Part shown: one piece after another, positions 1 to 11,240 of the stretch
Layout: each line of letters starts with the position of its first letter
How positions within the stretch are numbered: the first letter of the stretch is position 1
IMG/VR virus record: IMGVR_UViG_3300034691_000049
Location: 1 to 64,000 of that record
DNA length: 64,000 nt
Direction: 5' to 3' (one strand)
Source of the DNA: a virus
The notes under the pieces: generated by a model
Told to the model about the DNA's origin: nothing
What the model saw: only the letters and a program-made list of their open reading frames with translations
The model's database searches: none
Position numbers and translations under genes: made by a program

Positions 1-336
1 CACCATGGTGTAGGCATCGTTCCGCAGGTTGGGGTCAATCAGGTTGGTGGCCAGGCAGCCGGCCAGGCACCGAGTGACCACGGACATGATGGACATGCCC
101 GAGCAGGTGGCATCAAGGCCAACCATGTGACCAATTGCTTCACCGCGGCAAGCGCGGTACAGGGCATTGACAGCTTTCAAGTACAGCGGACGTTCTTTCT
201 TACTGGTTTCGAGGTACGGCAGACGGTTGAAGTTATCCTTTACCCATTGAACGCGTTGTTCGAACAGTTTCTTGTCCATGTCAGCTTGGTTAGCAATATC
301 AACACAGATCCACTCAAAGCTTGTATATTCACGCAT
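1..336 (-). CDS. N4-like RNA polymerase II subunit 2 (RNAP2), 5' part, runs off the window
   Basis: Hand translation from ATG 336 gives MREYTSFEWICVDIAN...GHMVGLDATCSGMSIM, with the T7-type motif A DxxCSG. It lies two ORFs downstream of RNAP1 and is absent from the ORF track because it is truncated. Confidence 0.9.
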   Translation of the reverse strand, partial: MREYTSFEWICVDIANQADMDKKLFEQRVQWVKDNFNRLPYLETSKKERPLYLKAVNALYRACRGEAIGHMVGLDATCSGMSIMSVVTRCLAGCLATNLIDPNLRNDAYTMV

Positions 337-357
337 GGATTACTCTCCAGTTAGGAA

Positions 358-630
358 TTAATTTAGAATCATGTCGGCAAAAATCATTTCTTGCCCTGAT
401 GGATTATCATTGAACGGGACACAGCTAATGGCAACACTTGTGCTGCCATTGGACTGGAACATTTTTCTTGCTGCCCAACAACGACCTTTATCTACAAAGC
501 AGATGTAACACAGGTCTAACCCCTCGACATGATGTTTAGATAGGTGAAATTGGGAACTGTCAGCGTTATTGCTGATGTTGGGGATAACATCAGCATCCGT
601 AGGCTTATGCCTGATGAACAGGCGAGCCAT
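358..630 (-). CDS. hypothetical protein between RNAP1 and RNAP2
   Basis: 90-aa ORF coupled to the upstream ORF. Its tail (QEMIFADMILN) weakly resembles the early-array motif. Confidence 0.6.
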   Translation of the reverse strand: MARLFIRHKPTDADVIPNISNNADSSQFHLSKHHVEGLDLCYICFVDKGRCWAARKMFQSNGSTSVAISCVPFNDNPSGQEMIFADMILN

Positions 631-1046
631 TACATAGGTTCTTCTGGTTCGATGTAATCGTCACGCTGGCGCTTACGTTTGATGTAACCTTCCTCGTTGA
701 GAACGAAGTCGCCGATTTCGTAGATATTCAACAGTTCTTCACGCGAAAGCGCCGAAGTATTACCCATATCGGTAATAACTCCATAAACTTTCCCGGAAGT
801 GCCAATGTCATAAATCATGCCATTGCCACGCTGACGCCCGTTCTTGGTGTACAACTGCGCAAAGAGCACAGGCTCTTGTGCAATGTTCCATGCCGAAGCC
901 CAATCAGGGAGCGGTCCCATTTCAGTCTCGTACTGATCCAACGCTTTGCGTGCCAAATCAACGACTTCATCTTGTTTTGCGTTCTGCGGGCTGACCATGT
1001 CAGCCAACGAGCGTAAGGCAAGGTACAACATACGATCAGTTTGCAT
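630..1046 (-). CDS. hypothetical protein
   Basis: Likely start is MQTDRML at 1046, preceded by a GAGGA SD. Confidence 0.65.
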   Translation of the reverse strand: MQTDRMLYLALRSLADMVSPQNAKQDEVVDLARKALDQYETEMGPLPDWASAWNIAQEPVLFAQLYTKNGRQRGNGMIYDIGTSGKVYGVITDMGNTSALSREELLNIYEIGDFVLNEEGYIKRKRQRDDYIEPEEPM

Positions 1047-1145
1047 AATTGAATCCTCGGAAGGTGCCGCACTTAGTGAACCGCATGTTTCCCACACGGC
1101 GAGGTGTCTTGACCTCTTTTACATCTGGTTTAGCAGGTTTCTGTT

Positions 1146-2075
1146 TCACAACTGGAACTCAGCAGGAATGTCGGTAACGACTTGTTTATGCGCAAACTCA
1201 AGCATGGCCTTCTTATAAGGCGCACCCTGAGTCGATATGTGATAACCGTTGGCGTAGATACGCCCTCTTTTATCGTACTTGTGATGCAAGTAGAACTTGT
1301 TGCCTTGACCTGCCATAAGCAGGTAGAACTCATGCGATTGGCGCTTCTGATTCAACCACATGGTTTGTTTCTCAGGAGAATCCAGCTCACTGTTGGGCAT
1401 TTCCTCAACTGTGCTCAGGAACTCCAGATCCAGCGATAGTGCGACTGAATTCTTCGAATCCAGTACATCAAGGCACACGTCGTCGTTGTGGTGACCTTTA
1501 TTCAAGATCACCGAGTCCTGTCCAATAGTCAGGTACGGCGTGTCCTTGTTGTGACGCAGCTTCTTCGGTGGATGCACCAGAGGCGGCAGATAGGCGCAGT
1601 TGGCGATGTACTCTTCCAACTGAAGGGACAGGGTGATGTTGCTGATGATGTTCCAGCTACCGAATCGGTTGGCCTGGGTCAGGTCAAACAGATCGGTATC
1701 ACACAGTACTGCGGTGATTTCCGCAATGGTGGTGATGCTGGACTTCTTGTCGTCCCAGCCGAGGGTGCCGGCCATGCGGGCTGTGAAGCTGGTGAACAGT
1801 TCTTCATGCTGGCAGTAGGCCGAAGCCACAACGATATCAATGACCAGCTCACGCAGGTCCATGCCGCGCAAGCCAGAGATGCGAATGTTCTTCGACTCGT
1901 AGCTGAAGGTCTGGCCGACCCACTCAGTGAGCAGGTCAACGCCCTTATCCAGCAGTGGAATCACGTCTGCATCCGCAAGGACGTAGTCACGCATGTACTT
2001 GTCGATATGGTGACGGGCAAAACGGTATTCGTTTGCACGTTGTATATCGTCGGTAAGCATAAGGGTAGGTTTCAC
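1146..2075 (-). CDS. N4-like RNA polymerase II subunit 1 (RNAP1)
   Basis: 309 aa with FYLHHKYDKRGRIYANGYHISTQG, the T7-family DxRGRxY motif, and an AGGAG SD. Confidence 0.92.
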   Translation of the reverse strand: MKPTLMLTDDIQRANEYRFARHHIDKYMRDYVLADADVIPLLDKGVDLLTEWVGQTFSYESKNIRISGLRGMDLRELVIDIVVASAYCQHEELFTSFTARMAGTLGWDDKKSSITTIAEITAVLCDTDLFDLTQANRFGSWNIISNITLSLQLEEYIANCAYLPPLVHPPKKLRHNKDTPYLTIGQDSVILNKGHHNDDVCLDVLDSKNSVALSLDLEFLSTVEEMPNSELDSPEKQTMWLNQKRQSHEFYLLMAGQGNKFYLHHKYDKRGRIYANGYHISTQGAPYKKAMLEFAHKQVVTDIPAEFQL

Positions 2076-2085
2076 GGATAAACTC

Positions 2086-2322
2086 CTAGTTTACAAGCAT
2101 TGCAGCAAGTTTGATCTCTTCCGGTGTATCTTTAGGGTCAGCTTGGCATCTAAGCCCGTTACCCCCCAAATAGTACAGATCGCCGTTTGGCTCTAACGTG
2201 TAGATAACTGAAGCAGTGCAACCACTTAGTTGAGTCATACGCTGTAACGTAACCCAACGACCTGCTTGCTCAATTTCTAACTTTCCGCGGAACATATATA
2301 GGATGGTGCGCATCTCTTCCAT
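2086..2322 (-). CDS. small early protein, C-terminal-motif family
   Basis: Ends DTPEEIKLAAMLVN. Confidence 0.75.
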   Translation of the reverse strand: MEEMRTILYMFRGKLEIEQAGRWVTLQRMTQLSGCTASVIYTLEPNGDLYYLGGNGLRCQADPKDTPEEIKLAAMLVN

Positions 2323-2329
2323 AATTCAC

Positions 2330-2593
2330 CTATTCTGTGCAGAGATGCACGACTTGAACACATTCAGGAAGACTATCTACCGAAATTGGCAGTAACTGGT
2401 TAAAGTAACTGATTCTAGAGTTGTCACGAGTACCTCTTTGAAGCATACGCCATTGAACCCCTTGAGGTTCGACAAAGCGGACATAAACCTCGCCCATGGG
2501 AAATCTGCTGCCTAAATGCATAGCAGTTGAGTCTTCAGCCTCCAAAATCATACGAATGTTGTCGTTTATTACGTTAACGGTGAGTGCCATCAC
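2330..2593 (-). CDS. small early protein, C-terminal-motif family
   Basis: Ends SLPECVQVVHLCTE. Confidence 0.7.
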   Translation of the reverse strand: MMALTVNVINDNIRMILEAEDSTAMHLGSRFPMGEVYVRFVEPQGVQWRMLQRGTRDNSRISYFNQLLPISVDSLPECVQVVHLCTE

Positions 2594-2901
2594 TAACCTC
2601 GCACAAATTCCAGCATTTTGATCGGCTCAGGTAGGGTCATGGCAGCAGACCATGCAATACCGTTTGGACTATCCAAACCCCAACGGGATTGATCGTCCCA
2701 GTAGAAATAGTTGTAGTACCAGTCCAACCCGGGATCTATAGTCTTTTTGTAGGGGTTCATTCTAACACGCCCGCAAAACACGCAACCTGGGCGGTACTGG
2801 TAAAACTTACCCCAATGAGGCTTCGAGTCTGCTTCCACAGTCTCGAAAACCTCAAGGATTACATCTTTGGTTTCGTTGAGGATCACCCAAACGGTCTTCA
2901 T
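2593..2901 (-). CDS. small early protein, C-terminal-motif family
   Basis: Ends TLPEPIKMLEFVRG; start overlaps the upstream stop. Confidence 0.7.
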   Translation of the reverse strand: MKTVWVILNETKDVILEVFETVEADSKPHWGKFYQYRPGCVFCGRVRMNPYKKTIDPGLDWYYNYFYWDDQSRWGLDSPNGIAWSAAMTLPEPIKMLEFVRG

Positions 2902-3191
2902 GGCGCCACCATCTGCATCATGAGGATTACGTCAGGAACTGATGCCAAACCCACGTCATTGAACTTATACCGCTGGTTTGAGTAACAATATTCACCCTTG
3001 TACCAACTGCCGAAATCATCTTGTAGATAAACCACACAGAATGGATCATCTTTTCGTGCTCCTTCGCATACTTGCAGAATCTCGCTAGAGAGAAGCCTTG
3101 TAGTCACACAAGGCACTGTATTTACTATGTAATACACAACACCAACCGTTAACCCGGAAATTCCCGGGGCTTGGAAGTTCCAGTTTTTCAT
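2898..3191 (-). CDS. small early protein, C-terminal-motif family
   Basis: Ends SVPDVILMMQMVAP; ATGA overlap. Confidence 0.7.
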   Translation of the reverse strand: MKNWNFQAPGISGLTVGVVYYIVNTVPCVTTRLLSSEILQVCEGARKDDPFCVVYLQDDFGSWYKGEYCYSNQRYKFNDVGLASVPDVILMMQMVAP

Positions 3192-3442
3192 TCGAGCATC
3201 ATCCTCGTAAGTTTTACTATGTCAGGCACAAAATCAGGCTTTAACCACTCTTTGATCTGCACACGCCAGTACAGCCACACTTCCCGGTTATCTGTTGTCA
3301 TGTACCAGTGATACAGCGTGATTTCTGGATTCACTTCAGCCGTTGCAAACATGTGAAGTCCAATACCTAAAAGTATGTCGGACTCATCCGTCATAATCAC
3401 AGAATCTTGCACTTTGTTATAAGCAAAGGTAAATAGGCTCAT
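3188..3442 (-). CDS. small early protein, C-terminal-motif family
   Basis: Ends FVPDIVKLTRMMLE; ATGA overlap. Confidence 0.75.
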   Translation of the reverse strand: MSLFTFAYNKVQDSVIMTDESDILLGIGLHMFATAEVNPEITLYHWYMTTDNREVWLYWRVQIKEWLKPDFVPDIVKLTRMMLE

Positions 3443-3657
3443 AACAGCATCATCATGGCTAGTTTTACCACTTCAGGTATGTCTTCATCCTTTATTGGGT
3501 GATACCCCTGAGTTTCTGGGGTCCAGCAGGACCACCAAACGCTGTTGTTGTATGCATAAACGTCCATATCGTCACGAAGGTACGGAATGTTCAATATCTG
3601 AACATCCAGCACCAGTTCTTCAGTGTTACGGCACCAACCTACTTTCTTTGTGCTCAT
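3439..3657 (-). CDS. small early protein, C-terminal-motif family
   Basis: Ends DIPEVVKLAMMMLL; ATGA overlap. Confidence 0.75.
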   Translation of the reverse strand: MSTKKVGWCRNTEELVLDVQILNIPYLRDDMDVYAYNNSVWWSCWTPETQGYHPIKDEDIPEVVKLAMMMLL

Positions 3658-3881
3658 GTCAGTAACATGTGCGCAAGACGCACAGCCTCCGGCACTTCAG
3701 TTGTGGTTATAGGACTGCCAATGAGAATATCAATGTCAGTACCGAGGCGGTATGCGTACCAGCGATCCGGCACTTTGATGCCGTACACTGGACGGTATAC
3801 CGACCGTGTTTCAATGAACGTGTCCGCGATGAGGACCACCTCTTTATCGACGGTGTCGTAGACCGCGAAGAACACGGTCAT
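3654..3881 (-). CDS. small early protein, C-terminal-motif family
   Basis: Ends EVPEAVRLAHMLLT; ATGA overlap. Confidence 0.75.
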   Translation of the reverse strand: MTVFFAVYDTVDKEVVLIADTFIETRSVYRPVYGIKVPDRWYAYRLGTDIDILIGSPITTTEVPEAVRLAHMLLT

Positions 3882-4150
3882 TCGGACACCATGACAGCCA
3901 GCCGCACCATTTCAGGTACGTCAGCTTCCTGTTTATACAGACATTCCCCCGGGCACCGGGTCAACGACCATTGCAGGGAAGTGCGCCAAGGGTAGAAGGT
4001 GTAGACCCAGAACGTGTCAAACAAACCACAGCTCACCTTACCGCCATCGACCACCTGCCCAGTTGAGTAGTCCCACAGGATTTTGACAGGTACTGCGGGC
4101 GCCTGATCCGGGACATTAAATGGATCATCCCAAGGCATGGACGCCTTCAT
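3878..4150 (-). CDS. small early protein, C-terminal-motif family
   Basis: Ends DVPEMVRLAVMVSE; ATGA overlap. Confidence 0.75.
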   Translation of the reverse strand: MKASMPWDDPFNVPDQAPAVPVKILWDYSTGQVVDGGKVSCGLFDTFWVYTFYPWRTSLQWSLTRCPGECLYKQEADVPEMVRLAVMVSE

Positions 4151-4587
4151 GGTACTGGCTTCCAGACTTGGATGTTGCTCGGCAAGCGCTCGATAAGGCT
4201 ATTGAGCATCCATTCCGGTTGATCATACCCGGGCCACTCCAATGCAAAGACCTTGTCGGGGTTAGCCTGGGCCAACGTAGCCAATCGCAGCAGTGCCCCG
4301 GAGATCAAACCAAGGTTGATGCCGTTGCGGGGAGAGATCATGTGCTGTAAGATGCCAACCTTGCCAGAGCAACGCAGATAGAACTCGCCACCATCCCCGC
4401 ACGTCTCCTTGATCCACGCTCCCATCTTCGCCTTTAGGGTAGGGTATTTAAGACCCAACACCCCGGCGAGACCATTGAGCATAATAAGCTCTCCAGTCTC
4501 CACCCGAAGCTTACTTCCCACACAAATGATGAAATGATCGACTTGGTCGAAGACATCCATCATATCCCCATGTTTAATCACGTTCAT
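4147..4587 (-). CDS. divergent macrodomain-like (ADP-ribose-binding fold) protein
   Basis: N-terminus IKHGDMMD...GELIMLNGLAGVLGLKYP echoes the GDhh...MGxGhA...YP macrodomain pattern; 146 aa. Confidence 0.5.
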   Translation of the reverse strand: MNVIKHGDMMDVFDQVDHFIICVGSKLRVETGELIMLNGLAGVLGLKYPTLKAKMGAWIKETCGDGGEFYLRCSGKVGILQHMISPRNGINLGLISGALLRLATLAQANPDKVFALEWPGYDQPEWMLNSLIERLPSNIQVWKPVP

Positions 4588-4835
4588 CGCATAATCTCCG
4601 CAGTTCGTACGATTTCAGGAACACTATTGAGCAATTCAGGCTCCCAGCGTGCATAAGCAATGCCAGCGGTAGGGATTGAGTACCAATCCCCATCACGAGC
4701 ACGCCACCACAAGTGGCAACCTTCATATGTAGCAACAACCTTGTGCATATCAGCAATAGACCAATTGGCTTGGTCTACGAGGATGCCATCGACGTAATCA
4801 CCGTCTCGGGTGACGTGGTACATGAGCATTGCCAT
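4584..4835 (-). CDS. small early protein, C-terminal-motif family
   Basis: Ends SVPEIVRTAEIMR. Confidence 0.75.
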   Translation of the reverse strand: MAMLMYHVTRDGDYVDGILVDQANWSIADMHKVVATYEGCHLWWRARDGDWYSIPTAGIAYARWEPELLNSVPEIVRTAEIMR

Positions 4836-4839
4836 AGTT

Positions 4840-5109
4840 TTAACCCCCTTGAATTAGATGAGCCATTATCACCACATCAGGTGGTATTGCAGGCTCCCAA
4901 ATGGCGCTGCGTATGGTATTGGTGTCCATATAGGCCCAACCAAACATAACGCGGCACCACACCCGACAATCAGGGTAATCTTTGGCAGCACTCCTATAAC
5001 TGTAGGTATCCGGCGAATCTAACTGGATAACTCCAACAATTTCCCCATTTTGCTCTACGAACCAGACGGGAGTTACGCCTTTCGGTAGGTGAGCAGAGTC
5101 AACTTGCAC
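4840..5109 (-). CDS. small early protein, C-terminal-motif family
   Basis: Ends IPPDVVIMAHLIQGG. Confidence 0.7.
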   Translation of the reverse strand: MQVDSAHLPKGVTPVWFVEQNGEIVGVIQLDSPDTYSYRSAAKDYPDCRVWCRVMFGWAYMDTNTIRSAIWEPAIPPDVVIMAHLIQGG

Positions 5110-5473
5110 ACATCATTGCCACCTGAGCTTCAGGTGGCACCTCATCGTGCTGCACCGTCATAAGCGACGGACGTTTGTACAAAGTGCCCACGTTGGCATT
5201 CTTCCAGCGAATTTCACGCCAAACACGGTCAACACTGGGACGATAGAACATCACCCGGCATTTACCATGAGTTTGGAATGCTTTCTTTGCGTAGTACGCA
5301 GCATCGAACTTGGTACGTTCTTCAATTTGCAGAACGTCGCCATCACGGAATACTGCGCACAGAACTGGCTCAGCAATGTGAGCACGCTTCACTACGTTGT
5401 TATTAATGTTCATTGGGTCTTCAACCTCACCGAAAGACAGCATGTTTGTATAGTTTCTAGGTTTTCGGCTCAT
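5099..5473 (-). CDS. early protein, C-terminal-motif family
   Basis: Likely start is MSRKPRN at 5473 (GGAGG SD, ATGA overlap); ends EVPPEAQVAMMCAS. Confidence 0.7.
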   Translation of the reverse strand: MSRKPRNYTNMLSFGEVEDPMNINNNVVKRAHIAEPVLCAVFRDGDVLQIEERTKFDAAYYAKKAFQTHGKCRVMFYRPSVDRVWREIRWKNANVGTLYKRPSLMTVQHDEVPPEAQVAMMCAS

Positions 5474-5781
5474 ACAGCCTCCAAGATACCCAGAGTGTTC
5501 ATGACATGTGTCATTTTGCCCTCTTGCCACACACCAGCCCGATGAACACGGAACAACGCGAAGGCATTGAGAAATTCCTGCATCTCTTGCAAAGAATCAG
5601 CAACGTGAGTGACGCGCTGCATCCCTATACCGTTGGAATTCTTCAAATCCAACGAAAGCTGCATAAAGGAGATATCAGGTACAACTTCGCTGTGTTTCTG
5701 GCTTACACTCAGCTCATTCAGCACTAGCGAAATGAAGCCGAAGCACATCAACACAAAGAGCACATTAAGAGCTAACTGCAC
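5470..5781 (-). CDS. hypothetical membrane-anchored protein
   Basis: N-terminal hydrophobic helix LALNVLFVLMCFGFISLVL. Confidence 0.6.
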   Translation of the reverse strand: MQLALNVLFVLMCFGFISLVLNELSVSQKHSEVVPDISFMQLSLDLKNSNGIGMQRVTHVADSLQEMQEFLNAFALFRVHRAGVWQEGKMTHVMNTLGILEAV

Positions 5782-5783
5782 GA

Positions 5784-6428
5784 TCAGTTTCCTTTCTTAG
5801 CAGCAACGAGGTAAAGACGGCCAGTCTCTTCGATAATGGCCTGTTTGATTGACTTACGTACGCTTGGCAGCGCAACTTTGTCGTCCAGCACATTAAGCAC
5901 GGCTTCACGGTGAAGCTGACGCTTGCCGTTTGCGCGAAACAGCTCATGGCTCAGACCATCGATAGTTGCAGCCTGATTGTCGATAGACTTCTGCATCAGC
6001 TTCTGCATTTGCTTACGGCCCATCTTGGCGCCCTTGCGGACACCAGCCGTGTGCAGATTCTTAGCTTTCTGGTTTATGGTGGGGTCAATAGCTTGGTCTG
6101 CGACATGCAGCATCATGATTGCCAGCATCATGCCGGGATTGCCACCATGTTTGCTGAAGTCCCAGATACCAAGGGCAGACATGACCTTTACCAACGCATC
6201 ACGGTACTCATCAGAGAACTCCCAGCGATCTTTGTACAAAGTCGCCTGACTCTTCGCATCAGTCAGCAGTTCACGCCATTTAGCGTCACACGCTTGCAGA
6301 TGTTCACGTTGCAGCGCGTTACCCAGCAGTTGCTGACTTTCACAGCGGGCATAGCCCAACATTGCACCTACAATGAGGCACAACAGCGCACCAATGGTGC
6401 CGTAGATGAGTACAGTAGTCATTTCCAT
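5784..6428 (-). CDS. hypothetical membrane-anchored helical protein
   Basis: 214 aa with an N-terminal TM segment and a GGAG SD. Confidence 0.7.
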   Translation of the reverse strand: MEMTTVLIYGTIGALLCLIVGAMLGYARCESQQLLGNALQREHLQACDAKWRELLTDAKSQATLYKDRWEFSDEYRDALVKVMSALGIWDFSKHGGNPGMMLAIMMLHVADQAIDPTINQKAKNLHTAGVRKGAKMGRKQMQKLMQKSIDNQAATIDGLSHELFRANGKRQLHREAVLNVLDDKVALPSVRKSIKQAIIEETGRLYLVAAKKGN

Positions 6429-6431
6429 GGT

Positions 6432-6527
6432 TTACGCTCCGTAAGTTACATAAATGTTCAGAAGAATGTAGGCAAATGCCAAGATGCAAGAATACTTGCA
6501 GAATTTTGCACAGATGTGCTTTACCAC
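6432..6527 (-). CDS. 31-aa hydrophobic peptide (below ORF-track cutoff)
   Basis: GTG start with GGAG SD; MVKHICAKFCKYSCILAFAYILLNIYVTYGA*; fills the gap between its neighbours. Confidence 0.55.
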   Translation of the reverse strand: MVKHICAKFCKYSCILAFAYILLNIYVTYGA

Positions 6528-6805
6528 GGGTTATTACTCCGAGGGCCACAGTTTGGTTGAGGTTTCGCCTTATGATGGCGCTTTAGCTGATTACGCGAAG
6601 GACGTATCTCTCTATAGGGCCAGCCATGCGTGACCATGTCCACCTTATCGTCATGCAAACGAATCTCGTACATGATGGTGCCGGTCAGCAAAGCGTTGGC
6701 CAAGGCCAGCTTCATACGCAGGTTTAGCTTAGGGGAGCCACGCAGTGACGGCCCCAAGCCTAGAATCGTGGCGTTATACATACCAGGCGGTAACTTATCT
6801 GTCAT
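6521..6805 (-). CDS. hypothetical basic protein
   Basis: Likely start is MTDKLPPG at 6805, downstream of a terminator. Confidence 0.6.
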   Translation of the reverse strand: MTDKLPPGMYNATILGLGPSLRGSPKLNLRMKLALANALLTGTIMYEIRLHDDKVDMVTHGWPYREIRPSRNQLKRHHKAKPQPNCGPRSNNPW

Positions 6806-6817
6806 GGTTTCGCTCTC

Positions 6818-6853
6818 AAAAATGAGGGCCACCACCCCAATGGGATGATGGCC
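6818..6853 (-). terminator. rho-independent terminator after the gp2-like gene
   Basis: Minus strand GGCCATCATCCC-ATT-GGGGTGGTGGCC followed by a T-run. Confidence 0.65.
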
Positions 6854-6859
6854 GTCGGC

Positions 6860-7201
6860 TTACACCAGATCCAGCATCGATTCTTCGTCGGTGCGAGTTG
6901 GGTTGAAGCTGAATTCCAGCTTCTTGGTGAACTCACTGAGACGACGCGCTTTTTCAGCGACCAGTTCATCGGCGTTCAGCTTTTCATCGCCCGGGCGAGT
7001 GCAGCCGAGGTAAGCAGCGATCTGTTCGTGAGTCTTGTTGCCTTCCAGCAGGCGGACAGCGTCAACACGAATCGGATTGCCTTTGGCAGTCGGCAGATTC
7101 AGGTTGATGAAACCGAGGGTTTTCTTGGCAGCACCACCGCCTTCAGCACGAGCAGGAGCAGCAGAAGTGTTCGAGGTAGAGCCTTTACGTTCAACAGCCA
7201 T
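6860..7201 (-). CDS. N4 gp2-like ssDNA-binding activator of middle transcription (Drc-like)
   Basis: MAVERKG...KKTLGFINLNLPT...KKLEFSFNP with an acidic tail. It has its own hairpin promoter upstream and a terminator downstream, as for N4 gp2. Confidence 0.7.
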   Translation of the reverse strand: MAVERKGSTSNTSAAPARAEGGGAAKKTLGFINLNLPTAKGNPIRVDAVRLLEGNKTHEQIAAYLGCTRPGDEKLNADELVAEKARRLSEFTKKLEFSFNPTRTDEESMLDLV

Positions 7202-7250
7202 GGGAAATACTCCAGAATAACGGATAAGTGAGATTGATTGGCAGACATTG

Positions 7251-7270
7251 CCTTTACAGGGCCGAAGGCC
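7251..7270 (-). promoter_or_regulatory. vRNAP-type hairpin early promoter (P3)
   Basis: Template (+) strand CCTTTACAG-GGCC-GAA-GGCC, matching the two copies at 10.6-10.7 kb. Confidence 0.75.
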
Positions 7271-7280
7271 GCTTTTGATG

Positions 7281-7541
7281 TTACTTTGGTACATCCAACG
7301 ACACATTTACGGTAATGCCGGCATAAATTGCAGCAACGTACATGGTATCGAACGAAACACGCCATTCTTCGCCACGATTGATGAAACCGACGATGTTGGT
7401 GCTAACACCAAGAATCTCGCTCGCAACCTTCTGAGTCCACGCGTTTACCTTAATTTGCTTGCGCAACTCCTTGGCAATCAGTTCCTTCATGTGACCCAAG
7501 GATTGTTTCGCGAAGCAATTGGAGCTTTGAGCCTGTTTCAT
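7281..7541 (-). CDS. XRE-type helix-turn-helix protein
   Basis: WTQKVASEILGVSTNIVGFINRG fits the HTH pattern. Confidence 0.7.
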   Translation of the reverse strand: MKQAQSSNCFAKQSLGHMKELIAKELRKQIKVNAWTQKVASEILGVSTNIVGFINRGEEWRVSFDTMYVAAIYAGITVNVSLDVPK

Positions 7542-7644
7542 AGATACCTCTGGTTTAGGCTACCGCCGGCCCTCTATGAGGGCACATAGCGGTATGGTTT
7601 TCATCGCCGAAAAGGGCAATTACTGCATTGTTGATATATCGGTT

Positions 7645-7938
7645 TCAGAACTCGAACAATTGCGACTTGATGCCGTTGGCCACGTACGCATTGTGGGAGT
7701 TCTCCGCTTCACGACGCATAGCGTCACGGCTGCCGCAACCACTGCGCACAAAGGCCGAGACCAGCTTAGGTTTCACGATCAACACGCTATTAATAGCGTT
7801 CTCCTGCAATTTAGCTGCAACCAGCTCACAGGATTCACCCTTACGAATGACCGCAGTCATATCGGTGTAAGAGTTGGTGCATTCAACACTGCCGGTGGCA
7901 GTGCTTATGACACAAGCAGTAAAGAATGCAAAGATCAT
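7645..7938 (-). CDS. putative exported Cys-containing protein (paralog of 8139-8447)
   Basis: Hydrophobic N-terminus and four Cys with spacing similar to 8139-8447. Confidence 0.6.
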   Translation of the reverse strand: MIFAFFTACVISTATGSVECTNSYTDMTAVIRKGESCELVAAKLQENAINSVLIVKPKLVSAFVRSGCGSRDAMRREAENSHNAYVANGIKSQLFEF

Positions 7939-7950
7939 GGTTGTTTATCC

Positions 7951-8142
7951 TTATGAGTTAAGCATACGCAGCATCTTGCGGCGTTGCTGACGACGTTGTT
8001 TAGAGTTACCCACAAAAGATGGGTAATACACGACCGAGTCAGTACCATCTACAATAGCCCAATGGTTATGACGATTTACGTCCCGCAGTATCAGGAAAGG
8101 CGGGCACTTCTTACGTTGTATGTACTTGACGACGTAGTTCAT
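7951..8142 (-). CDS. hypothetical basic protein
   Basis: 63 aa, Arg-rich C-terminus, ATGA overlap. Confidence 0.55.
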   Translation of the reverse strand: MNYVVKYIQRKKCPPFLILRDVNRHNHWAIVDGTDSVVYYPSFVGNSKQRRQQRRKMLRMLNS

Positions 8143-8447
8143 GGATATTTATCCAAATTACGGATGGCGTACATAACTCCACCATCACTGTAAGTTTTCA
8201 TGACTCGCTCGATGACAGCATCGCGGTGAGCCGCAGTTGAATAACAATTGTGCGAACCCTTCTCCAATCGGATTACACCGGCTTGTTTCTTGAGTTCGTT
8301 GTTGAGTTTGTATCGGACATTGTCCATGGCGACATAACAGTTGGCATCAGTGAACGCCATGAACTTGTCATAGGTGTTAACGATACAAACTGTACCGCCA
8401 TCGACAACAGTGGCACATACGAGCGCCACAGTTGCGAAGAAGGGCAT
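8139..8447 (-). CDS. putative exported Cys-containing protein (paralog of 7645-7938)
   Basis: AAGGAG SD, hydrophobic N-terminus, four Cys. Confidence 0.65.
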   Translation of the reverse strand: MPFFATVALVCATVVDGGTVCIVNTYDKFMAFTDANCYVAMDNVRYKLNNELKKQAGVIRLEKGSHNCYSTAAHRDAVIERVMKTYSDGGVMYAIRNLDKYP

Positions 8448-8457
8448 GAGTTACTCC

Positions 8458-8586
8458 TTAAATGTCGTCTTCGGCTTGCGCATCGAAGTAACCTTGTTGC
8501 CAGTCGGCACACTTGGTTGGGTCGAACTCTTCGTCGAGTTCATATGCGTCGTAGCCTTCATCGTAAGCGAGAATGTTCTTTGGCAT
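8458..8586 (-). CDS. 42-aa acidic protein, Rmf/CrpP-like pattern (below ORF-track cutoff)
   Basis: AGGAG SD; MPKNILAYDEGYDAYELDEEFDPTKCADWQQGYFDAQAEDDI*. Confidence 0.7.
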   Translation of the reverse strand: MPKNILAYDEGYDAYELDEEFDPTKCADWQQGYFDAQAEDDI

Positions 8587-8615
8587 GGGATATAACTCCT
8601 AAAGTAAGTACGAGA

Positions 8616-8912
8616 TTACTGGCCTTCTTGTTCCCACTTCGCTGCCAGGGACAGCCAGAAGTCCATGCGCTGATCTGTAGTTGGGCGAGGCAGCTCAAGA
8701 TTATTAATGAAGTGATTGTTCAAGGTGCCCCAAGGTTGGGTCACCTCACTGATCATGTCACGCACGCGCTGAACTTGCTGAGGGTTGTTTGGGTACATGT
8801 GCTTGAGTGCAACACACAAGAACTCTGAGTGATTATCCCCGCATCGGCCATCATCAGGCGTGTAGTGCGCAGAGAGCGCAGTATCAATGATCATTTGACT
8901 TGGTTTAAGCAC
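8616..8912 (-). CDS. hypothetical protein
   Basis: 98 aa, AGGAG SD. Confidence 0.65.
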   Translation of the reverse strand: MLKPSQMIIDTALSAHYTPDDGRCGDNHSEFLCVALKHMYPNNPQQVQRVRDMISEVTQPWGTLNNHFINNLELPRPTTDQRMDFWLSLAAKWEQEGQ

Positions 8913-8922
8913 GGTGCAGCTC

Positions 8923-9264
8923 CTATTGTTCGAGAATGAATGTACGCACAGCGTTTACATCATCAAGGGTCACAACTTCCCAACCCTTGTCATGAATGAC
9001 AGCCAATATGGCATCTGGCTTGCTGCCGTATGGTGTGAGCATCATGGTAACTTTAGCTAGGGCACCCGCAGCAGTATCAGGGTCCAAGCGGTAATCAGGG
9101 GAATCACGTAGTTGAGTGAGCGCCTCGATAGCGTCAGTGCGAATGGTGGTATCCACCAAGGATTCTATGTGCTCTTTGATTAGGGAATACTGATCACCCG
9201 TAACAAGCCGCCTCAACGCAGCATTACGAAGGCAGGCTTGAAGTGCAATGATTAACTCTTTCAT
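8923..9264 (-). CDS. hypothetical protein
   Basis: 113 aa, AAGGAG SD. Confidence 0.7.
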   Translation of the reverse strand: MKELIIALQACLRNAALRRLVTGDQYSLIKEHIESLVDTTIRTDAIEALTQLRDSPDYRLDPDTAAGALAKVTMMLTPYGSKPDAILAVIHDKGWEVVTLDDVNAVRTFILEQ

Positions 9265-9275
9265 GGATGAACTCC

Positions 9276-9566
9276 TTACTTAGCTGGTTTGGGTGCAACA
9301 TAAACAGAGTGCATGACATTACGCGTGTTACCCGTAGTGTCAGACATAAGGAAGTCAATGTAGCTGTCGCACTGCGCTTGATCAGCACAATCATGCACCA
9401 AAGAACGATGCACACCTACATAAGGCACGACGGTGAACTTGATCTTGCAAGGGAACTGAATGACACGCTTGATGCACTGAGTGCACAGCAAATCATCATT
9501 CACCTTCTCAGCAGCCTCATTGGAACAACCAACAGTGGTGCAATACATAGTAGACAGGAAGCCCAC
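9276..9566 (-). CDS. hypothetical Zn-finger-like protein
   Basis: CTTVGC...CTQC Cys pairs. Confidence 0.6.
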   Translation of the reverse strand: MGFLSTMYCTTVGCSNEAAEKVNDDLLCTQCIKRVIQFPCKIKFTVVPYVGVHRSLVHDCADQAQCDSYIDFLMSDTTGNTRNVMHSVYVAPKPAK

Positions 9567-9619
9567 GGGAATACCCCTAAATGACGAATGGAAATACCTT
9601 AACAGGCCCGAATGGGCAG

Positions 9620-9847
9620 CTATTCAAGCATTGCAGCAAGTTTTATGACATCAGGGACATCATCTGCATTAAGGCGTTGAGCACTGCCAGTGAGATGGTC
9701 AAGTTTGATACAGTACCAGCCGTTTATTGGGTTATACCAATAATAAGCAAGCCCCTCGTGTAACCGCATCGCTTGAACCACATCCTCCTGCAAAGGCAGG
9801 GTCTCGAACGCTTTGACACCATTATCAGGGAGCAGCATGAATTCCAT
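9620..9847 (-). CDS. small early protein, C-terminal-motif family (outlier copy)
   Basis: Likely start is MEFMLLP at 9847 (GAGG SD); ends DVPDVIKLAAMLE. Confidence 0.7.
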   Translation of the reverse strand: MEFMLLPDNGVKAFETLPLQEDVVQAMRLHEGLAYYWYNPINGWYCIKLDHLTGSAQRLNADDVPDVIKLAAMLE

Positions 9848-10140
9848 AACGAAAGCCTCACATGAATACCGCCACAGCACCGATAGGTGACAGGTACACA
9901 TAGGTATGACGAAAGGGGATGAAAGGATATAGGAAAGGGGAAACCTTATCTCAACTGAACCCAAACTCACTGAGTTACCTCCTAAACCTCCCCTATTTCT
10001 CCCCCTATGGGGAATGGGTGGTGATATCCACTCTGACGAGTGGGAATCTGACTCATTGAAGGGGAAAGGACTCTTCCGAACCAACTGTCTAAAGGGGAAA
10101 GGGATGTGTGATGTTGATGTGTGCTTTGTGTGTGCTCTTG

Positions 10141-10172
10141 AAAAAAGATGCCTCACCTCCGAAGAGGTAAGG
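10141..10172 (-). terminator. rho-independent terminator after the first early gene
   Basis: Minus strand CCTTACCTC-TTCG-GAGGTGAGG followed by CATCTTTTTT (UUCG tetraloop). Confidence 0.8.
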
Positions 10173-10276
10173 ACTTGGTGAAGATGTTGTGCAAGTACCA
10201 GCCAATGACGATCAAAGACCAGACTAAGCACGAAGAGAGAGCAAGAGAGGTTTCAAAGGTCATGGATGGTTACCAG

Positions 10277-10570
10277 TTAAGCAGCGACGGCGTCAGCCTC
10301 GACTTGCAGGGCTTTCAGCTTGGCATTGAGGTCAGAAGCAGACAGAGCAGACTCAGCAGCACGAATGCGTTGATTGATGTCGTATTTGCCACGGAGAGCG
10401 TCGAGTTTCTCGTTACGTTCCAGAGTAGCGATTTCATTGAAGCCTTCAGCAGCACCCTCAACCCAGGAGGCAGAGTGGACAGCGGCATTGGACAACTTGG
10501 TACCAGCAGTGAACAGGTTGGTCAACATCAGGAAGAACTGAGCAGCCATAGCAAAGAACTGAGCAAACAT
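10277..10570 (-). CDS. first early gene (N4 gp1 position)
   Basis: Directly downstream of two hairpin promoters; GGAGA SD; 97-aa helical protein. Confidence 0.75.
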   Translation of the reverse strand: MFAQFFAMAAQFFLMLTNLFTAGTKLSNAAVHSASWVEGAAEGFNEIATLERNEKLDALRGKYDINQRIRAAESALSASDLNAKLKALQVEADAVAA

Positions 10571-10612
10571 GGTGTATCTCCAATCGATTGGTAAGGATGA
10601 GCACCGAAGTAC

Positions 10613-10632
10613 CCATCACATAGCCGAAGGCT
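10613..10632 (-). promoter_or_regulatory. vRNAP-type hairpin early promoter (P2)
   Basis: Template strand CCATCACAT-AGCC-GAA-GGCT. Confidence 0.7.
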
Positions 10633-10722
10633 TAGAGTAGAACATCCTCTACGTAGTGAATGACAAGCAAGACACACATAGCTGAGATCATAGGTAAGGT
10701 CCATGAAAGGTACAGGATTGTA

Positions 10723-10743
10723 CCGTAACAGGGCCGCAGGCCC
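10723..10743 (-). promoter_or_regulatory. vRNAP-type hairpin early promoter (P1)
   Basis: Template strand CCGTAACA-GGGCC-GCA-GGCCC. Confidence 0.7.
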
Positions 10744-10892
10744 GTATGCACACCCTAGGGTGGGTGGGTCATTGAGGAAAGTGGATTGTAATCAGACCCG
10801 GGGGGGTAGAAACGGAATAGGGGGTTGTTGTTACAAATGCCCTGAATCAACCTGTCTATAATATTTTTTCACCCTACTGCGTACTGCGACCA

Positions 10893-11240
10893 ATGGTATC
10901 TATGCCATACTCCCCTATATCTCAACGATGGGTGGCTTCCATGACTGTTCAGCGTTTCACTCGGCGGGATCGTCCCTTCCAGTACATAGCTGCACGTTTG
11001 GGCGGCCCATTCGATCCCTTGCCTTATTGGTTTCAGGTTTTGGAACGAAACGGTACACTAAGGTACGATAGCGAGTACAATGTCGAAGTTCGCGTGATAA
11101 CGGGTGCTTGGCAGACTGTCTCGCAGGGTGATTGGGTGGTTCTACAGCGCGGCGGTGAGTCTGACCTTGCTGGTTTCGATAAGGCCAACGTTTGGCTGGT
11201 AGAGCACGAAGACTTCATAAAATTATGGGAGAAGGTATGA
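10893..11240 (+). CDS. hypothetical protein (GDW-type beta-barrel phage family); likely start 10941
   Basis: QTVSQGDWVV...VEHEDFIKLWEKV resembles the widespread GD(Y/W)hh...F..TYE phage family. Confidence 0.6.
   Translation: MVSMPYSPISQRWVASMTVQRFTRRDRPFQYIAARLGGPFDPLPYWFQVLERNGTLRYDSEYNVEVRVITGAWQTVSQGDWVVLQRGGESDLAGFDKANVWLVEHEDFIKLWEKV

What the first reader, a model, noticed from the sequence alone, without database searches (positions are those of the whole stretch)
2086..5473. Array of ~11 divergent early proteins sharing only a C-terminal hP(E/D)xh(K/R)hAxM tail, plus a 12th copy at 9620-9847
Seen in sequence: the tails are TPEEIKLAAML, LPECVQVVHL, LPEPIKMLEF, VPDVILMMQM, VPDIVKLTRMM, IPEVVKLAMMM, VPEAVRLAHML, VPEMVRLAVMV, VPEIVRTAEIM, PPDVVIMAHL, PPEAQVAMM and (9620) VPDVIKLAAML. 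Each lies within ~15 aa of the stop and usually follows a W/Y-rich beta-like segment. The bodies share little recognisable identity, and most genes are chained by ATGA overlaps, suggesting stoichiometric co-translation. Inference: this is a diversified paralog family with variable target-binding bodies and a constant amphipathic tail that docks on a common partner (a phage scaffold, host protease/adaptor, or each other). It could be a modular host-takeover or anti-defence toolkit placed just before RNAP II. I know of no characterised function for it.
Basis: partly seen in the sequence, partly recalled or inferred. Interest (0 to 1): 0.85.

Follow-up and report, generated by a model that had tools for sequence, protein, structure and literature searches.

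The report
Expanded early-protein family in N4-like phage
An N4-like Pseudomonas phage carries twelve copies of a small, previously undescribed early protein that share one predicted mini-fold and a conserved C-terminal helix, and what they do is unknown but is probably directed at the host.

Summary
Twelve minus-strand ORFs (11 between 2086 and 5473, one at 9620-9847) end in hP(E/D)xh(K/R)hAxM. No other ORF of the 72.8-kb genome does (12 of 576). Third codon positions vary, so selection acts on the protein. The window is a Shizishanvirus-like N4-type phage. Seven related viral contigs, one of them equal in length to phCDa, carry 9-14 copies each, falling into about 13 ortholog groups under purifying selection.

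By sequence the bodies are indeed barely related once the tail is removed. But two distant members fold with AlphaFold2 into the same ββαβββα topology, with the tail as the last helix (pLDDT 91 and 86). Independently built BFVD models of phCDa paralogs match. So this looks like one small domain, not unrelated bodies carrying a portable tail.

There is no hit in Pfam, PHROGs or PDB sequences, and no Foldseek PDB hit at E<=0.001. Only 94 of 1.84 billion representative proteins match.

Function is not shown. My best inference is a diversified host-takeover or anti-defence set, co-translated in the early operon beside a macro-like gene and RNAP II. A shared docking role for the tail is untested.

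The parts
2086..2322 (-). Family member 1 (78 aa), tail TPEEIKLAAML. Its stop lies 10 nt before the RNAP small-subunit start.
   Evidence: left-out-subfamily profile E=2.2e-4
2330..2593 (-). Family member 2 (87 aa, GTG start), tail LPECVQVVHL
   Evidence: E=0.0019
2593..2901 (-). Family member 3 (102 aa), tail LPEPIKMLEF. This is the weakest member by sequence.
   Evidence: E=0.072, level with the best non-family ORF; one ortholog in each of the 8 genomes
2898..3191 (-). Family member 4 (97 aa), tail VPDVILMMQM. AlphaFold2 model 2.
   Evidence: pLDDT 85.5, ββαβββα; E=5.7e-5
3188..3442 (-). Family member 5 (84 aa), tail VPDIVKLTRMM
   Evidence: E=5e-7
3439..3657 (-). Family member 6 (72 aa, the shortest), tail IPEVVKLAMMM
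   Evidence: E=4.5e-10; one ortholog in each of the 8 genomes
3654..3881 (-). Family member 7 (75 aa), tail VPEAVRLAHML
   Evidence: E=2.7e-7
3878..4150 (-). Family member 8 (90 aa), tail VPEMVRLAVMV
   Evidence: E=7.7e-6
4147..4587 (-). Embedded non-member (146 aa), macro-domain-like, with ATGA overlaps on both sides. It holds the same position in the six relatives checked.
   Evidence: phrog_335 'phosphatase' 1.4e-6; no Pfam hit; ESM Atlas structure TM 0.82 to a Macro (PF01661) cluster; orthologs in L003-L005 and L007-L009
4584..4835 (-). Family member 9 (83 aa), tail VPEIVRTAEIM
   Evidence: E=3.6e-5
4840..5109 (-). Family member 10 (89 aa, GTG start uncertain), tail PPDVVIMAHL
   Evidence: E=2.8e-6
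5099..5473 (-). Family member 11 (124 aa from the ATG at 5473; domain from about 5413), tail VPPEAQVAMM. It is the only basic member (pI 9.3 for the 104-aa form).
   Evidence: E=1.9e-7
9620..9847 (-). Family member 12 (75 aa), tail VPDVIKLAAML. It belongs to the largest subfamily and is the second ORF of the early region. AlphaFold2 model 1.
   Evidence: pLDDT 90.9, pTM 0.78; E=1.3e-8
1146..2075 (-). Context: RNAP II small-subunit gene immediately downstream of the array
   Evidence: 86-95% aa identity to the homologs in L003-L009; phCDa gp49 is annotated 'RNA polymerase small subunit'

Best explanation
This is a lineage-specific, anciently expanded family of small (about 70-125 aa) soluble early proteins of Shizishanvirus-type N4-like Pseudomonas phages.

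All copies appear to be one compact domain with the order β-hairpin, helix, three strands, C-terminal helix. The conserved 'tail' is that last helix. It has a Pro at its start, an acidic residue next, a K/R one turn later, and a broad hydrophobic face. A near-invariant Trp on strand 4 is the only other strongly conserved residue; that the two pack together in the core is inferred. The loops and the linker before the tail evolve fast.

The genes lie in the early operon ahead of the RNAP II genes. They are mostly chained by ATGA stop-start overlaps, often without a Shine-Dalgarno site, so they are probably made together by translational coupling.

I infer that each of the roughly 13 subfamilies uses its own diverged surface to bind a different host (or phage) target during takeover or counter-defence.

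Shown: the family, its restriction to this clade, protein-level purifying selection, the predicted common fold, and the operon layout. Inferred: early expression, coupling, any binding, and the takeover or anti-defence role.
For: Family and motif:
- 12 of 576 ORFs carry the motif, all in this region.
- The leave-out profiles recover 9 of 12 (tail only) and 11 of 12 (full length).

Protein-level constraint:
- Third codon positions are variable.
- Rough dN/dS is 0.02-0.5 for ortholog pairs with an estimable dS.

Conservation in relatives:
- 9-14 copies in each of 7 related IMG/VR contigs, one of them apparently phCDa itself.
- The tree resolves ortholog groups with one member per genome, plus tandem duplications of the 9620-type copy.

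Common fold:
- AF2 of 9620-9847 gives pLDDT 90.9 and pTM 0.78 with E2-5 E11-14 H20-29 E34-39 E43-48 E57-59 H66-74.
- AF2 of 2898-3191 gives pLDDT 85.5 and pTM 0.77 with the same order of elements.
- BFVD returns 5 phCDa proteins among the top 8 hits, TMq 0.56-0.89.

Conservation profile: W44 4.6 bits, P65 4.4 bits, seven tail positions 2.0-2.5 bits, and 91-100% hydrophobic at tail positions 64, 68, 70, 71, 73 and 74.

No fusions: all 94 database relatives are 71-129 aa.

Context:
- An embedded macro-like gene, a PHROG 'toxin/host takeover' gene at 6860-7306, and RNAP II downstream.
- Sigma-70-like promoters are depleted, 3 found against 13.4 expected.

Coupling: 8 of 13 junctions are ATGA, and anti-SD duplex energies run from +1.5 to -4.9 kcal/mol for five chained genes.

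Turnover: only 2 subfamilies are present once in all 8 genomes.
Against: - No functional evidence of any kind exists. No known family, solved structure or literature links the fold to binding or to defence.
- Both AF2 runs used alignments of the whole family, so fold identity is partly built in. The independent BFVD models cover only about 4 subfamilies.
- I could not inspect coordinates, so burial of the tail helix is inferred from pLDDT and hydrophobic periodicity only.
- Without the tail, sequence homology of the bodies is not demonstrable.
- The tail is more conserved than any other core element, including its exposed acidic and basic positions. A purely structural role does not fully explain that.
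- Other early ORFs evolve just as fast, so the rapid divergence is not special to this family. The crude dN/dS gives no sign of positive selection, and dS is saturated.
Confidence: 0.55

Rival explanations
1. The C-terminal helix, perhaps together with the invariant Trp, is a shared docking surface that brings every paralog to one common partner. That partner could be a host hub such as a protease or adaptor, or a phage protein such as the macro-like enzyme encoded inside the array. The diverged bodies would select different cargos or targets.
For: The tail is the most conserved element both between subfamilies and within them. Within-group identity is about 0.83 for the tail against about 0.68 for the body. 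The solvent-facing E/D(+1) and K/R(+4) carry 2.3-2.5 bits, while the other helix carries 0.4-1.1 bits. The hydrophobic arc of the helix is wide; about 220 degrees is my own helical-wheel reckoning frequencies. The Pro sits 11-12 residues from the C-terminus in 166 of 181 sequences. The macro-like gene is co-located and ATGA-coupled in the window and holds the same place in six relatives.
Against: AF2 places the tail as an ordered helix of a compact domain, with block-mean pLDDT 84-96 and pTM 0.77-0.78 in monomer models. The P-E/D...K/R pattern is also what a helix N-cap plus an i/i+3 salt bridge would give (general knowledge). The tail is not found on any other fold or larger protein. No partner has been identified.
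Confidence: 0.2
2. The paralogs assemble with each other through the tail helices into homo- or hetero-oligomers, and co-translation supplies the subunits together.
For: ATGA-coupled translation with weak SD sites; the wide hydrophobic face of the tail helix.
Against: Subfamily content differs between closely related genomes. Only 2 subfamilies occur once in all 8, the 9620-type ranges from 0 to 3 copies, and there are whole-subfamily gains and losses. That is hard to square with a fixed hetero-complex.
Confidence: 0.1
3. They are accessory factors of the phage transcription machinery, cofactors or modulators of RNAP II or of the virion RNAP. They would be placed before the RNAP II genes for that reason.
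For: Position immediately upstream of the RNAP II small subunit. N4-type RNAP II is known to need a small phage cofactor (recalled knowledge of N4 gp2, not checked here).
Against: A dozen paralogs are not needed for one polymerase. No homolog was found in any other phage record by tblastn with the 9620-type member; only phCDa was hit, among 50,697 records. One member lies 4 kb away, near the start of the early region.
Confidence: 0.07
4. A largely neutral or selfish tandem expansion of a dispensable ORFan, with no individual functions.
For: Fast divergence and copy-number turnover. The family is confined to one small clade.
Against: Ortholog groups are retained one per genome across phages whose RNAP is only 86-87% identical. 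dN/dS is below 1 throughout, and one pair is 98% identical in protein at dS 0.66. Reading frames are intact, with a single truncated copy seen in one relative.
Confidence: 0.05
5. The tail is conserved because the DNA or RNA beneath it is a signal, such as a ribosome-binding or coupling element for the next gene, or a promoter.
For: Each tail lies directly before the next start codon.
Against: Third codon positions are nearly free while first and second positions are fixed. Most chained genes have no SD match in that stretch. Copies not followed by an overlapping gene (2086-2322, 9620-9847) have the same tail.
Confidence: 0.03

Closest known systems
Hypothetical proteins of Pseudomonas phage phCDa (13 ORFs of the record NC_048003 that match the tail profile)
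   Same: True homologs. They have the same tail, the same array position before the RNAP small subunit and the same subfamilies. Five BFVD models of phCDa proteins match the window model at TMq 0.56-0.89.
   Different: In the part of the record I read, the ORFs under the match are annotated only as 'hypothetical protein'. In the passages I read, the two papers that name phCDa (PMC7650795, PMC12943162) say nothing about these genes. Orthologs are 34-66% identical to the window's copies.
Clusters of small early host-takeover or anti-defence ORFans in lytic phages (the N4 early region, T7 class I genes, the SPO1 host-takeover module). Recalled, not tested here.
   Same: Small early-operon genes of unknown family, fast evolving, tightly packed and next to the phage's own transcription genes.
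   Different: Those clusters are, as far as I recall, made of mutually unrelated proteins. Here about 12% of the phage's genes are one family with one predicted fold. No sequence relative was found in other phage records or in PHROGs (0 of 88).
T4 internal proteins with a shared capsid-targeting sequence (recalled)
   Same: Diverse small proteins carrying one short, constant terminal peptide.
   Different: In T4 the peptide is N-terminal, the genes are late and the proteins are packaged. Here the motif is C-terminal, is a predicted helix of the domain, and the genes sit in the early operon.
Poxvirus ankyrin/PRANC (F-box-like) multigene families (recalled)
   Same: A viral multigene family with variable target-binding parts and a constant C-terminal element.
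   Different: No homology. PRANC is a separate domain that binds a known host ligase. Here no partner is known and the tail appears to be part of the single domain.

Membership tests
The paralog family itself (working definition) | C-terminal helix hP(E/D)xh(K/R)hAxMh, with the Pro 11-14 residues from the end | tested here: met
   12 of 12 window copies; 94 of 94 database relatives; the Pro is 11-12 residues from the C-terminus in 166 of 181 sequences
The paralog family itself (working definition) | Detectable by a profile built only from other subfamilies | tested here: met
   11 of 12 at E<=0.002 and above every non-family ORF; 2593-2901 is borderline at E=0.072
The paralog family itself (working definition) | Common ββαβββα fold | tested here: inconclusive
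   Modelled for 2 of 12 copies with family-wide alignments. BFVD models of 5 phCDa proteins agree. The other subfamilies were not modelled and no coordinates were inspected.
Any Pfam-A or PHROGs family | Significant profile match | tested here: not met
   0 of 88 members at E<=0.001 in each library. For the 12 window copies, no PHROG hit at E<=0.01 and only two chance-level Pfam hits well under their cut-offs: AAA_assoc (E=0.15) and Sarcoglycan_2 (E=0.018). NCBIfam gave 0 for the 3 copies tried.
Any solved structure | Sequence or fold match in the PDB | tested here: not met
   Profile against PDB sequences: best E=1.6. Foldseek: 0 hits at E<=0.001 for both models, best TMq about 0.42.
T4-type internal proteins (capsid-targeting sequence) | Shared peptide at the N-terminus of late, packaged proteins (recalled definition) | tested here: not met
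   The motif is C-terminal and the genes lie in the early operon upstream of RNAP II. Packaging is not testable here.
Mimic of the FtsZ C-terminal conserved peptide | The tail resembles the FtsZ C-terminal peptide, which binds partners as a strand plus helix (PMC4835091, passages) | tested here: not met
   A position matrix from 171 family tails gave only negative scores on E. coli FtsZ. The correctly registered C-terminal window was not among FtsZ's five best 10-mers, all <= -0.39 bits.
ssrA-like C-terminal degron | The protein ends in L-A-A (recalled definition) | tested here: not met
   0 of 12 copies end that way. The last two residues are VN, TE, RG, AP, LE, LL, LT, SE, MR, GG, AS and LE.
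Early proteins shared across N4-like phages | Homologs in N4 or other Schitoviridae genera | tested here: not met
   tblastn of the 9620-type copy against 50,697 phage records hit only the two phCDa records. Only one member was searched this way.

The most novel reading that the evidence does not exclude
The family is a phage-encoded adaptor set built on a new mini-fold. The invariant Trp and the C-terminal helix would form one common docking surface for a single shared partner. Candidates are the macro-domain-like enzyme translated from the middle of the array, or a host hub such as a protease. The fast-evolving loops of each of the roughly 13 subfamilies would pick different host targets. 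That would make it a bacterial-virus counterpart of the F-box/PRANC adaptor families of eukaryotic viruses.
Probability: 0.12. Interest if true: 0.85.

Novelty: new variant of a known kind. Interest (0 to 1): 0.55.

Why it matters
About one gene in eight of this phage belongs to a single family that no database describes, and its predicted fold matches no solved structure at Foldseek E<=0.001. Such a large, anciently maintained expansion in a 73-kb lytic phage implies a repeated need, most plausibly dealing with many host factors or defences.

If individual targets can be found, the family would give a compact (72-100 aa) natural binder scaffold. It would also open a way into the host-takeover biology of N4-like phages of soil and food-plant Pseudomonas.

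The practical limits are that the family is confined to one small clade and that nothing yet points to a specific function.

Tried and rejected
- **Homodimer prediction.** Complex prediction on two copies of 9620-9847 with alignment A2 gave no answer. I do not count it for or against binding.
- **FtsZ C-terminal peptide mimicry.** I recalled a resemblance and then tested it with a tail matrix on E. coli FtsZ. The result was negative.
- **ssrA-like degron.** Rejected on the actual C-termini.
- **DNA-level explanation of the tail.** Rejected by codon-position analysis.
- **The search for related loci with the 12-copy alignment.** It failed because no stretch was conserved enough. I used the RNAP small subunit as an anchor instead.
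- **Looking for the divergent relative P0089.** Nothing turned up in GTDB genomes or IMG/VR.
- **A degenerate DNA pattern for the 9620-type tail.** It found only 3 IMG/VR contigs.
- **ESM Atlas for the 9620 copy.** It gave nothing usable; the Atlas's own model has pLDDT 0.53.
- **The 146-aa embedded protein against the PDB.** Neither the single sequence nor the profile gave a hit.
- **Positive selection.** Nei-Gojobori dN/dS gave no sign of it, but dS is saturated, so the estimates are crude.
- **Not available or not used.** Supplementary files of papers were not consulted. Sequencing-run tools were not used.

Full report
**What the window is.** The window is the first 64 kb of a 72,809-bp virus record that CheckV rates 99% complete. 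Its nearest isolate is Pseudomonas phage phCDa (Schitoviridae, Shizishanvirus; host P. fluorescens), at about 79% nucleotide identity over 16% of the first 10.5 kb.

The finding lies on the minus strand, in the block of small genes that runs down to the gene at 1146-2075. The phCDa counterpart of that gene is annotated as the RNA polymerase small subunit. Sigma-70-like promoters are scarce in the first 11 kb: 3 found against 13.4±4.5 in shuffles. That fits a phage that uses its own polymerases.

**The observation.** All twelve quoted tails are present. Eleven genes lie between 2086 and 5473 and one lies at 9620-9847. A 146-aa gene (4147-4587) that lacks the tail interrupts the array.

A tail regex, written after seeing the tails, hits 12 of 576 ORFs of 40 aa or more in six frames of the whole genome, and only these. 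I ran three non-circular tests against all 672 genome ORFs of 35 aa or more:
- A profile of the last 20 residues of eleven copies ranks the twelfth first among untrained ORFs in 9 of 12 cases.
- A full-length profile built from 117-167 sequences of other subfamilies recovers 11 of 12 window copies at E<=0.002, while the best non-family ORF scores E=0.024-0.94. The exception is 2593-2901 at E=0.072.
- When the tail is cut off, only 4 of 12 bodies beat the best unrelated ORF, with a best E of 0.0018.

Pairwise BLAST matches are also mostly limited to the tail and the 20-40 residues before it.

In the tail, first and second codon positions are fixed while third positions carry 0.04-0.6 bits (0.96 at the Pro codon). 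The constraint is therefore on the protein.

**Relatives.** Using the RNAP small subunit as an anchor, I fetched seven IMG/VR loci, in addition to the phCDa record. Each holds 9-14 family ORFs on the RNAP strand at the same two places.

A tree of 88 members resolves clades with one member per genome, several with SH-aLRT support of 96-99. It also shows tandem duplications of the 9620-type copy, which occurs in 0-3 copies by the 40% identity grouping, with further divergent tandem copies in L005. At 40% identity, each of the twelve window copies falls in its own group. Only two subfamilies are present exactly once in all eight genomes, and the window lacks one subfamily that five relatives have.

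Orthologs from phages whose RNAP subunit is 94-95% identical are mostly only 44-78% identical, with dN 0.16-0.67 against 0.03 for the RNAP. One exception is a pair at 98% identity. Rough dN/dS is 0.02-0.5, and dS is saturated. Non-family early ORFs diverge about as fast.

**Spread.** A profile search of 1.84 billion representative proteins found 94 hits at E<=0.001. All are 71-129 aa, match the profile nearly end to end, and carry the tail. There are no fusions to other domains.

The ten clusters I looked up come from metagenome assemblies, on contigs of up to about 74.6 kb. None carries a usable name. tblastn of the 9620-type member against 50,697 phage records hit only phCDa. A degenerate DNA pattern for the canonical tail hit 3 IMG/VR contigs.

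**Fold.** AlphaFold2 on 9620-9847 with the 88-sequence family alignment gave pLDDT 90.9 and pTM 0.78. The elements are strand 2-5, strand 11-14, helix 20-29, strands 34-39, 43-48 and 57-59, and helix 66-74, which is the tail.

The very different copy 2898-3191 is 16% identical to it. With a 150-sequence alignment it gave pLDDT 85.5 and pTM 0.77, with the same order of elements and the tail as helix 87-95.

Both runs used family-wide alignments, so they are not independent of the assumption of homology. The BFVD models were built separately.

Foldseek found no PDB chain at E<=0.001 for either model, with a best TMq of about 0.42. A profile search of PDB sequences gave a best E of 1.6. Pfam and PHROGs gave 0 of 88 members each.

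**What the tail looks like in this light.** Over the 88-sequence alignment, the most informative columns are Trp44 (4.6 bits, 97%), Pro65 (4.4 bits, 100%) and seven tail positions (2.0-2.5 bits). Tail positions 64, 68, 70, 71, 73 and 74 are 91-100% hydrophobic. In 171 tails, position +1 is E/D in 84% and +4 is K/R in 77%.

A Pro and an acidic residue at the helix start, a basic residue one turn on, and a hydrophobic face fit a capped amphipathic helix packed on the sheet. This reading is inference from general helix rules, because I could not inspect coordinates.

The tail is nevertheless more conserved than any other element, within ortholog groups as well as between them. Its polar positions are much more conserved than those of helix 1. 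A shared functional surface therefore remains possible.

**Operon layout.** From the gene at 5470-5781 down to the RNAP gene, 8 of 13 junctions are ATGA overlaps. Five of the chained genes have poor anti-SD pairing, from +1.5 to -4.9 kcal/mol. Translational coupling is a reasonable inference. Strict stoichiometry in a fixed complex is not, given the turnover.

Eleven of the twelve proteins are mildly acidic (pI 4.5-5.75) and one is basic (pI 9.3). GRAVY scores run from -0.41 to +0.35.

**Context genes.** The embedded 146-aa protein matches phrog_335 'phosphatase' (1.4e-6). In the ESM Atlas it matches viral clusters partly labelled Macro/Appr-1-p processing, with structure TM 0.81-0.91 and PF01661 named for one row. 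Pfam itself gives no hit.

The gene at 6860-7306 matches a PHROG filed under host takeover and labelled 'toxin' (2.3e-10). These neighbours fit a takeover or counter-defence operon, but they do not show what the family does.

It is a real, diversified, selected paralog family of early proteins with no known relatives. The evidence favours one small domain whose last helix is the 'tail', rather than unrelated bodies sharing a portable peptide. The function is unknown. I rate a diversified set of host-directed binders as most likely (0.55 for the whole statement) and a common-partner docking role for the tail as the main rival (0.2).

I found no description of the family in print. Searches for 'Shizishanvirus' (1 paper), 'phCDa' (23 papers, 10 listed, one of them on phages), and for Schitoviridae, early proteins and paralogs returned nothing on these genes in the listings and passages I read. 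Supplements were not consulted.

Noticed in passing
window 4147-4587 (-): A 146-aa macro-domain-like protein sits inside the array with ATGA overlaps on both sides. It holds the same position in six relatives. Its homologs (34 clusters at 90% identity) occur on contigs of up to about 78 kb and carry no Pfam domain in the precomputed table.
   Followed up: partly
window 7251-7270, 9597-9616, 10613-10632, 10723-10742: Four copies of a 20-nt element containing a GGCC-3nt-GGCC mini-hairpin followed by CTGT(T/A)A(C/A)GG on the minus strand. They lie in or near intergenic spots of the early region and may be virion-RNAP early promoters. This was not tested.
   Followed up: no
window 6853-6827 (-) and 10172-10151 (-): Two strong terminator-like hairpins with T-runs (12 and 9 pairs). 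One follows the gene 6860-7306. The other follows the first early ORF (10277-10570), about 300 nt before the 9620-type copy.
   Followed up: no
window 6860-7306 (-) and 7281-7541 (-): One early ORF matches phrog_6271 ('toxin', host-takeover category, 2.3e-10). Its overlapping upstream neighbour has a weak HTH match (phrog_2339, 1.8e-4; Pfam HTH_37 below cut-off).
   Followed up: no
L006 7340-7471 (+): A 43-aa ORF holding only the C-terminal part, tail included, of the 4584-type subfamily. The ortholog in L007 is 112 aa. It is a truncated or frameshifted copy, or an assembly error.
   Followed up: no
L003, L004 8938-9276 and L008 9176-9514 (+): Orthologs of 2593-2901 run 13 residues past the tail and overlap the next gene. 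This is one of the few cases where the tail is not at the very C-terminus.
   Followed up: no
window 4584-4835 vs L004 7046-7297: This ortholog pair is 98% identical in protein at dS of about 0.66 (dN/dS 0.02), far tighter than the other subfamilies for the same genome pair. Orthologs in L007 and L009 carry an extra N-terminal stretch of about 30 aa that looks like another β-hairpin.
   Followed up: no
window 1-11000: Sigma-70-like promoter matches are depleted (3 against 13.4±4.5 expected). Terminator-like hairpins are enriched (19 against 9.0±3.2).
   Followed up: no
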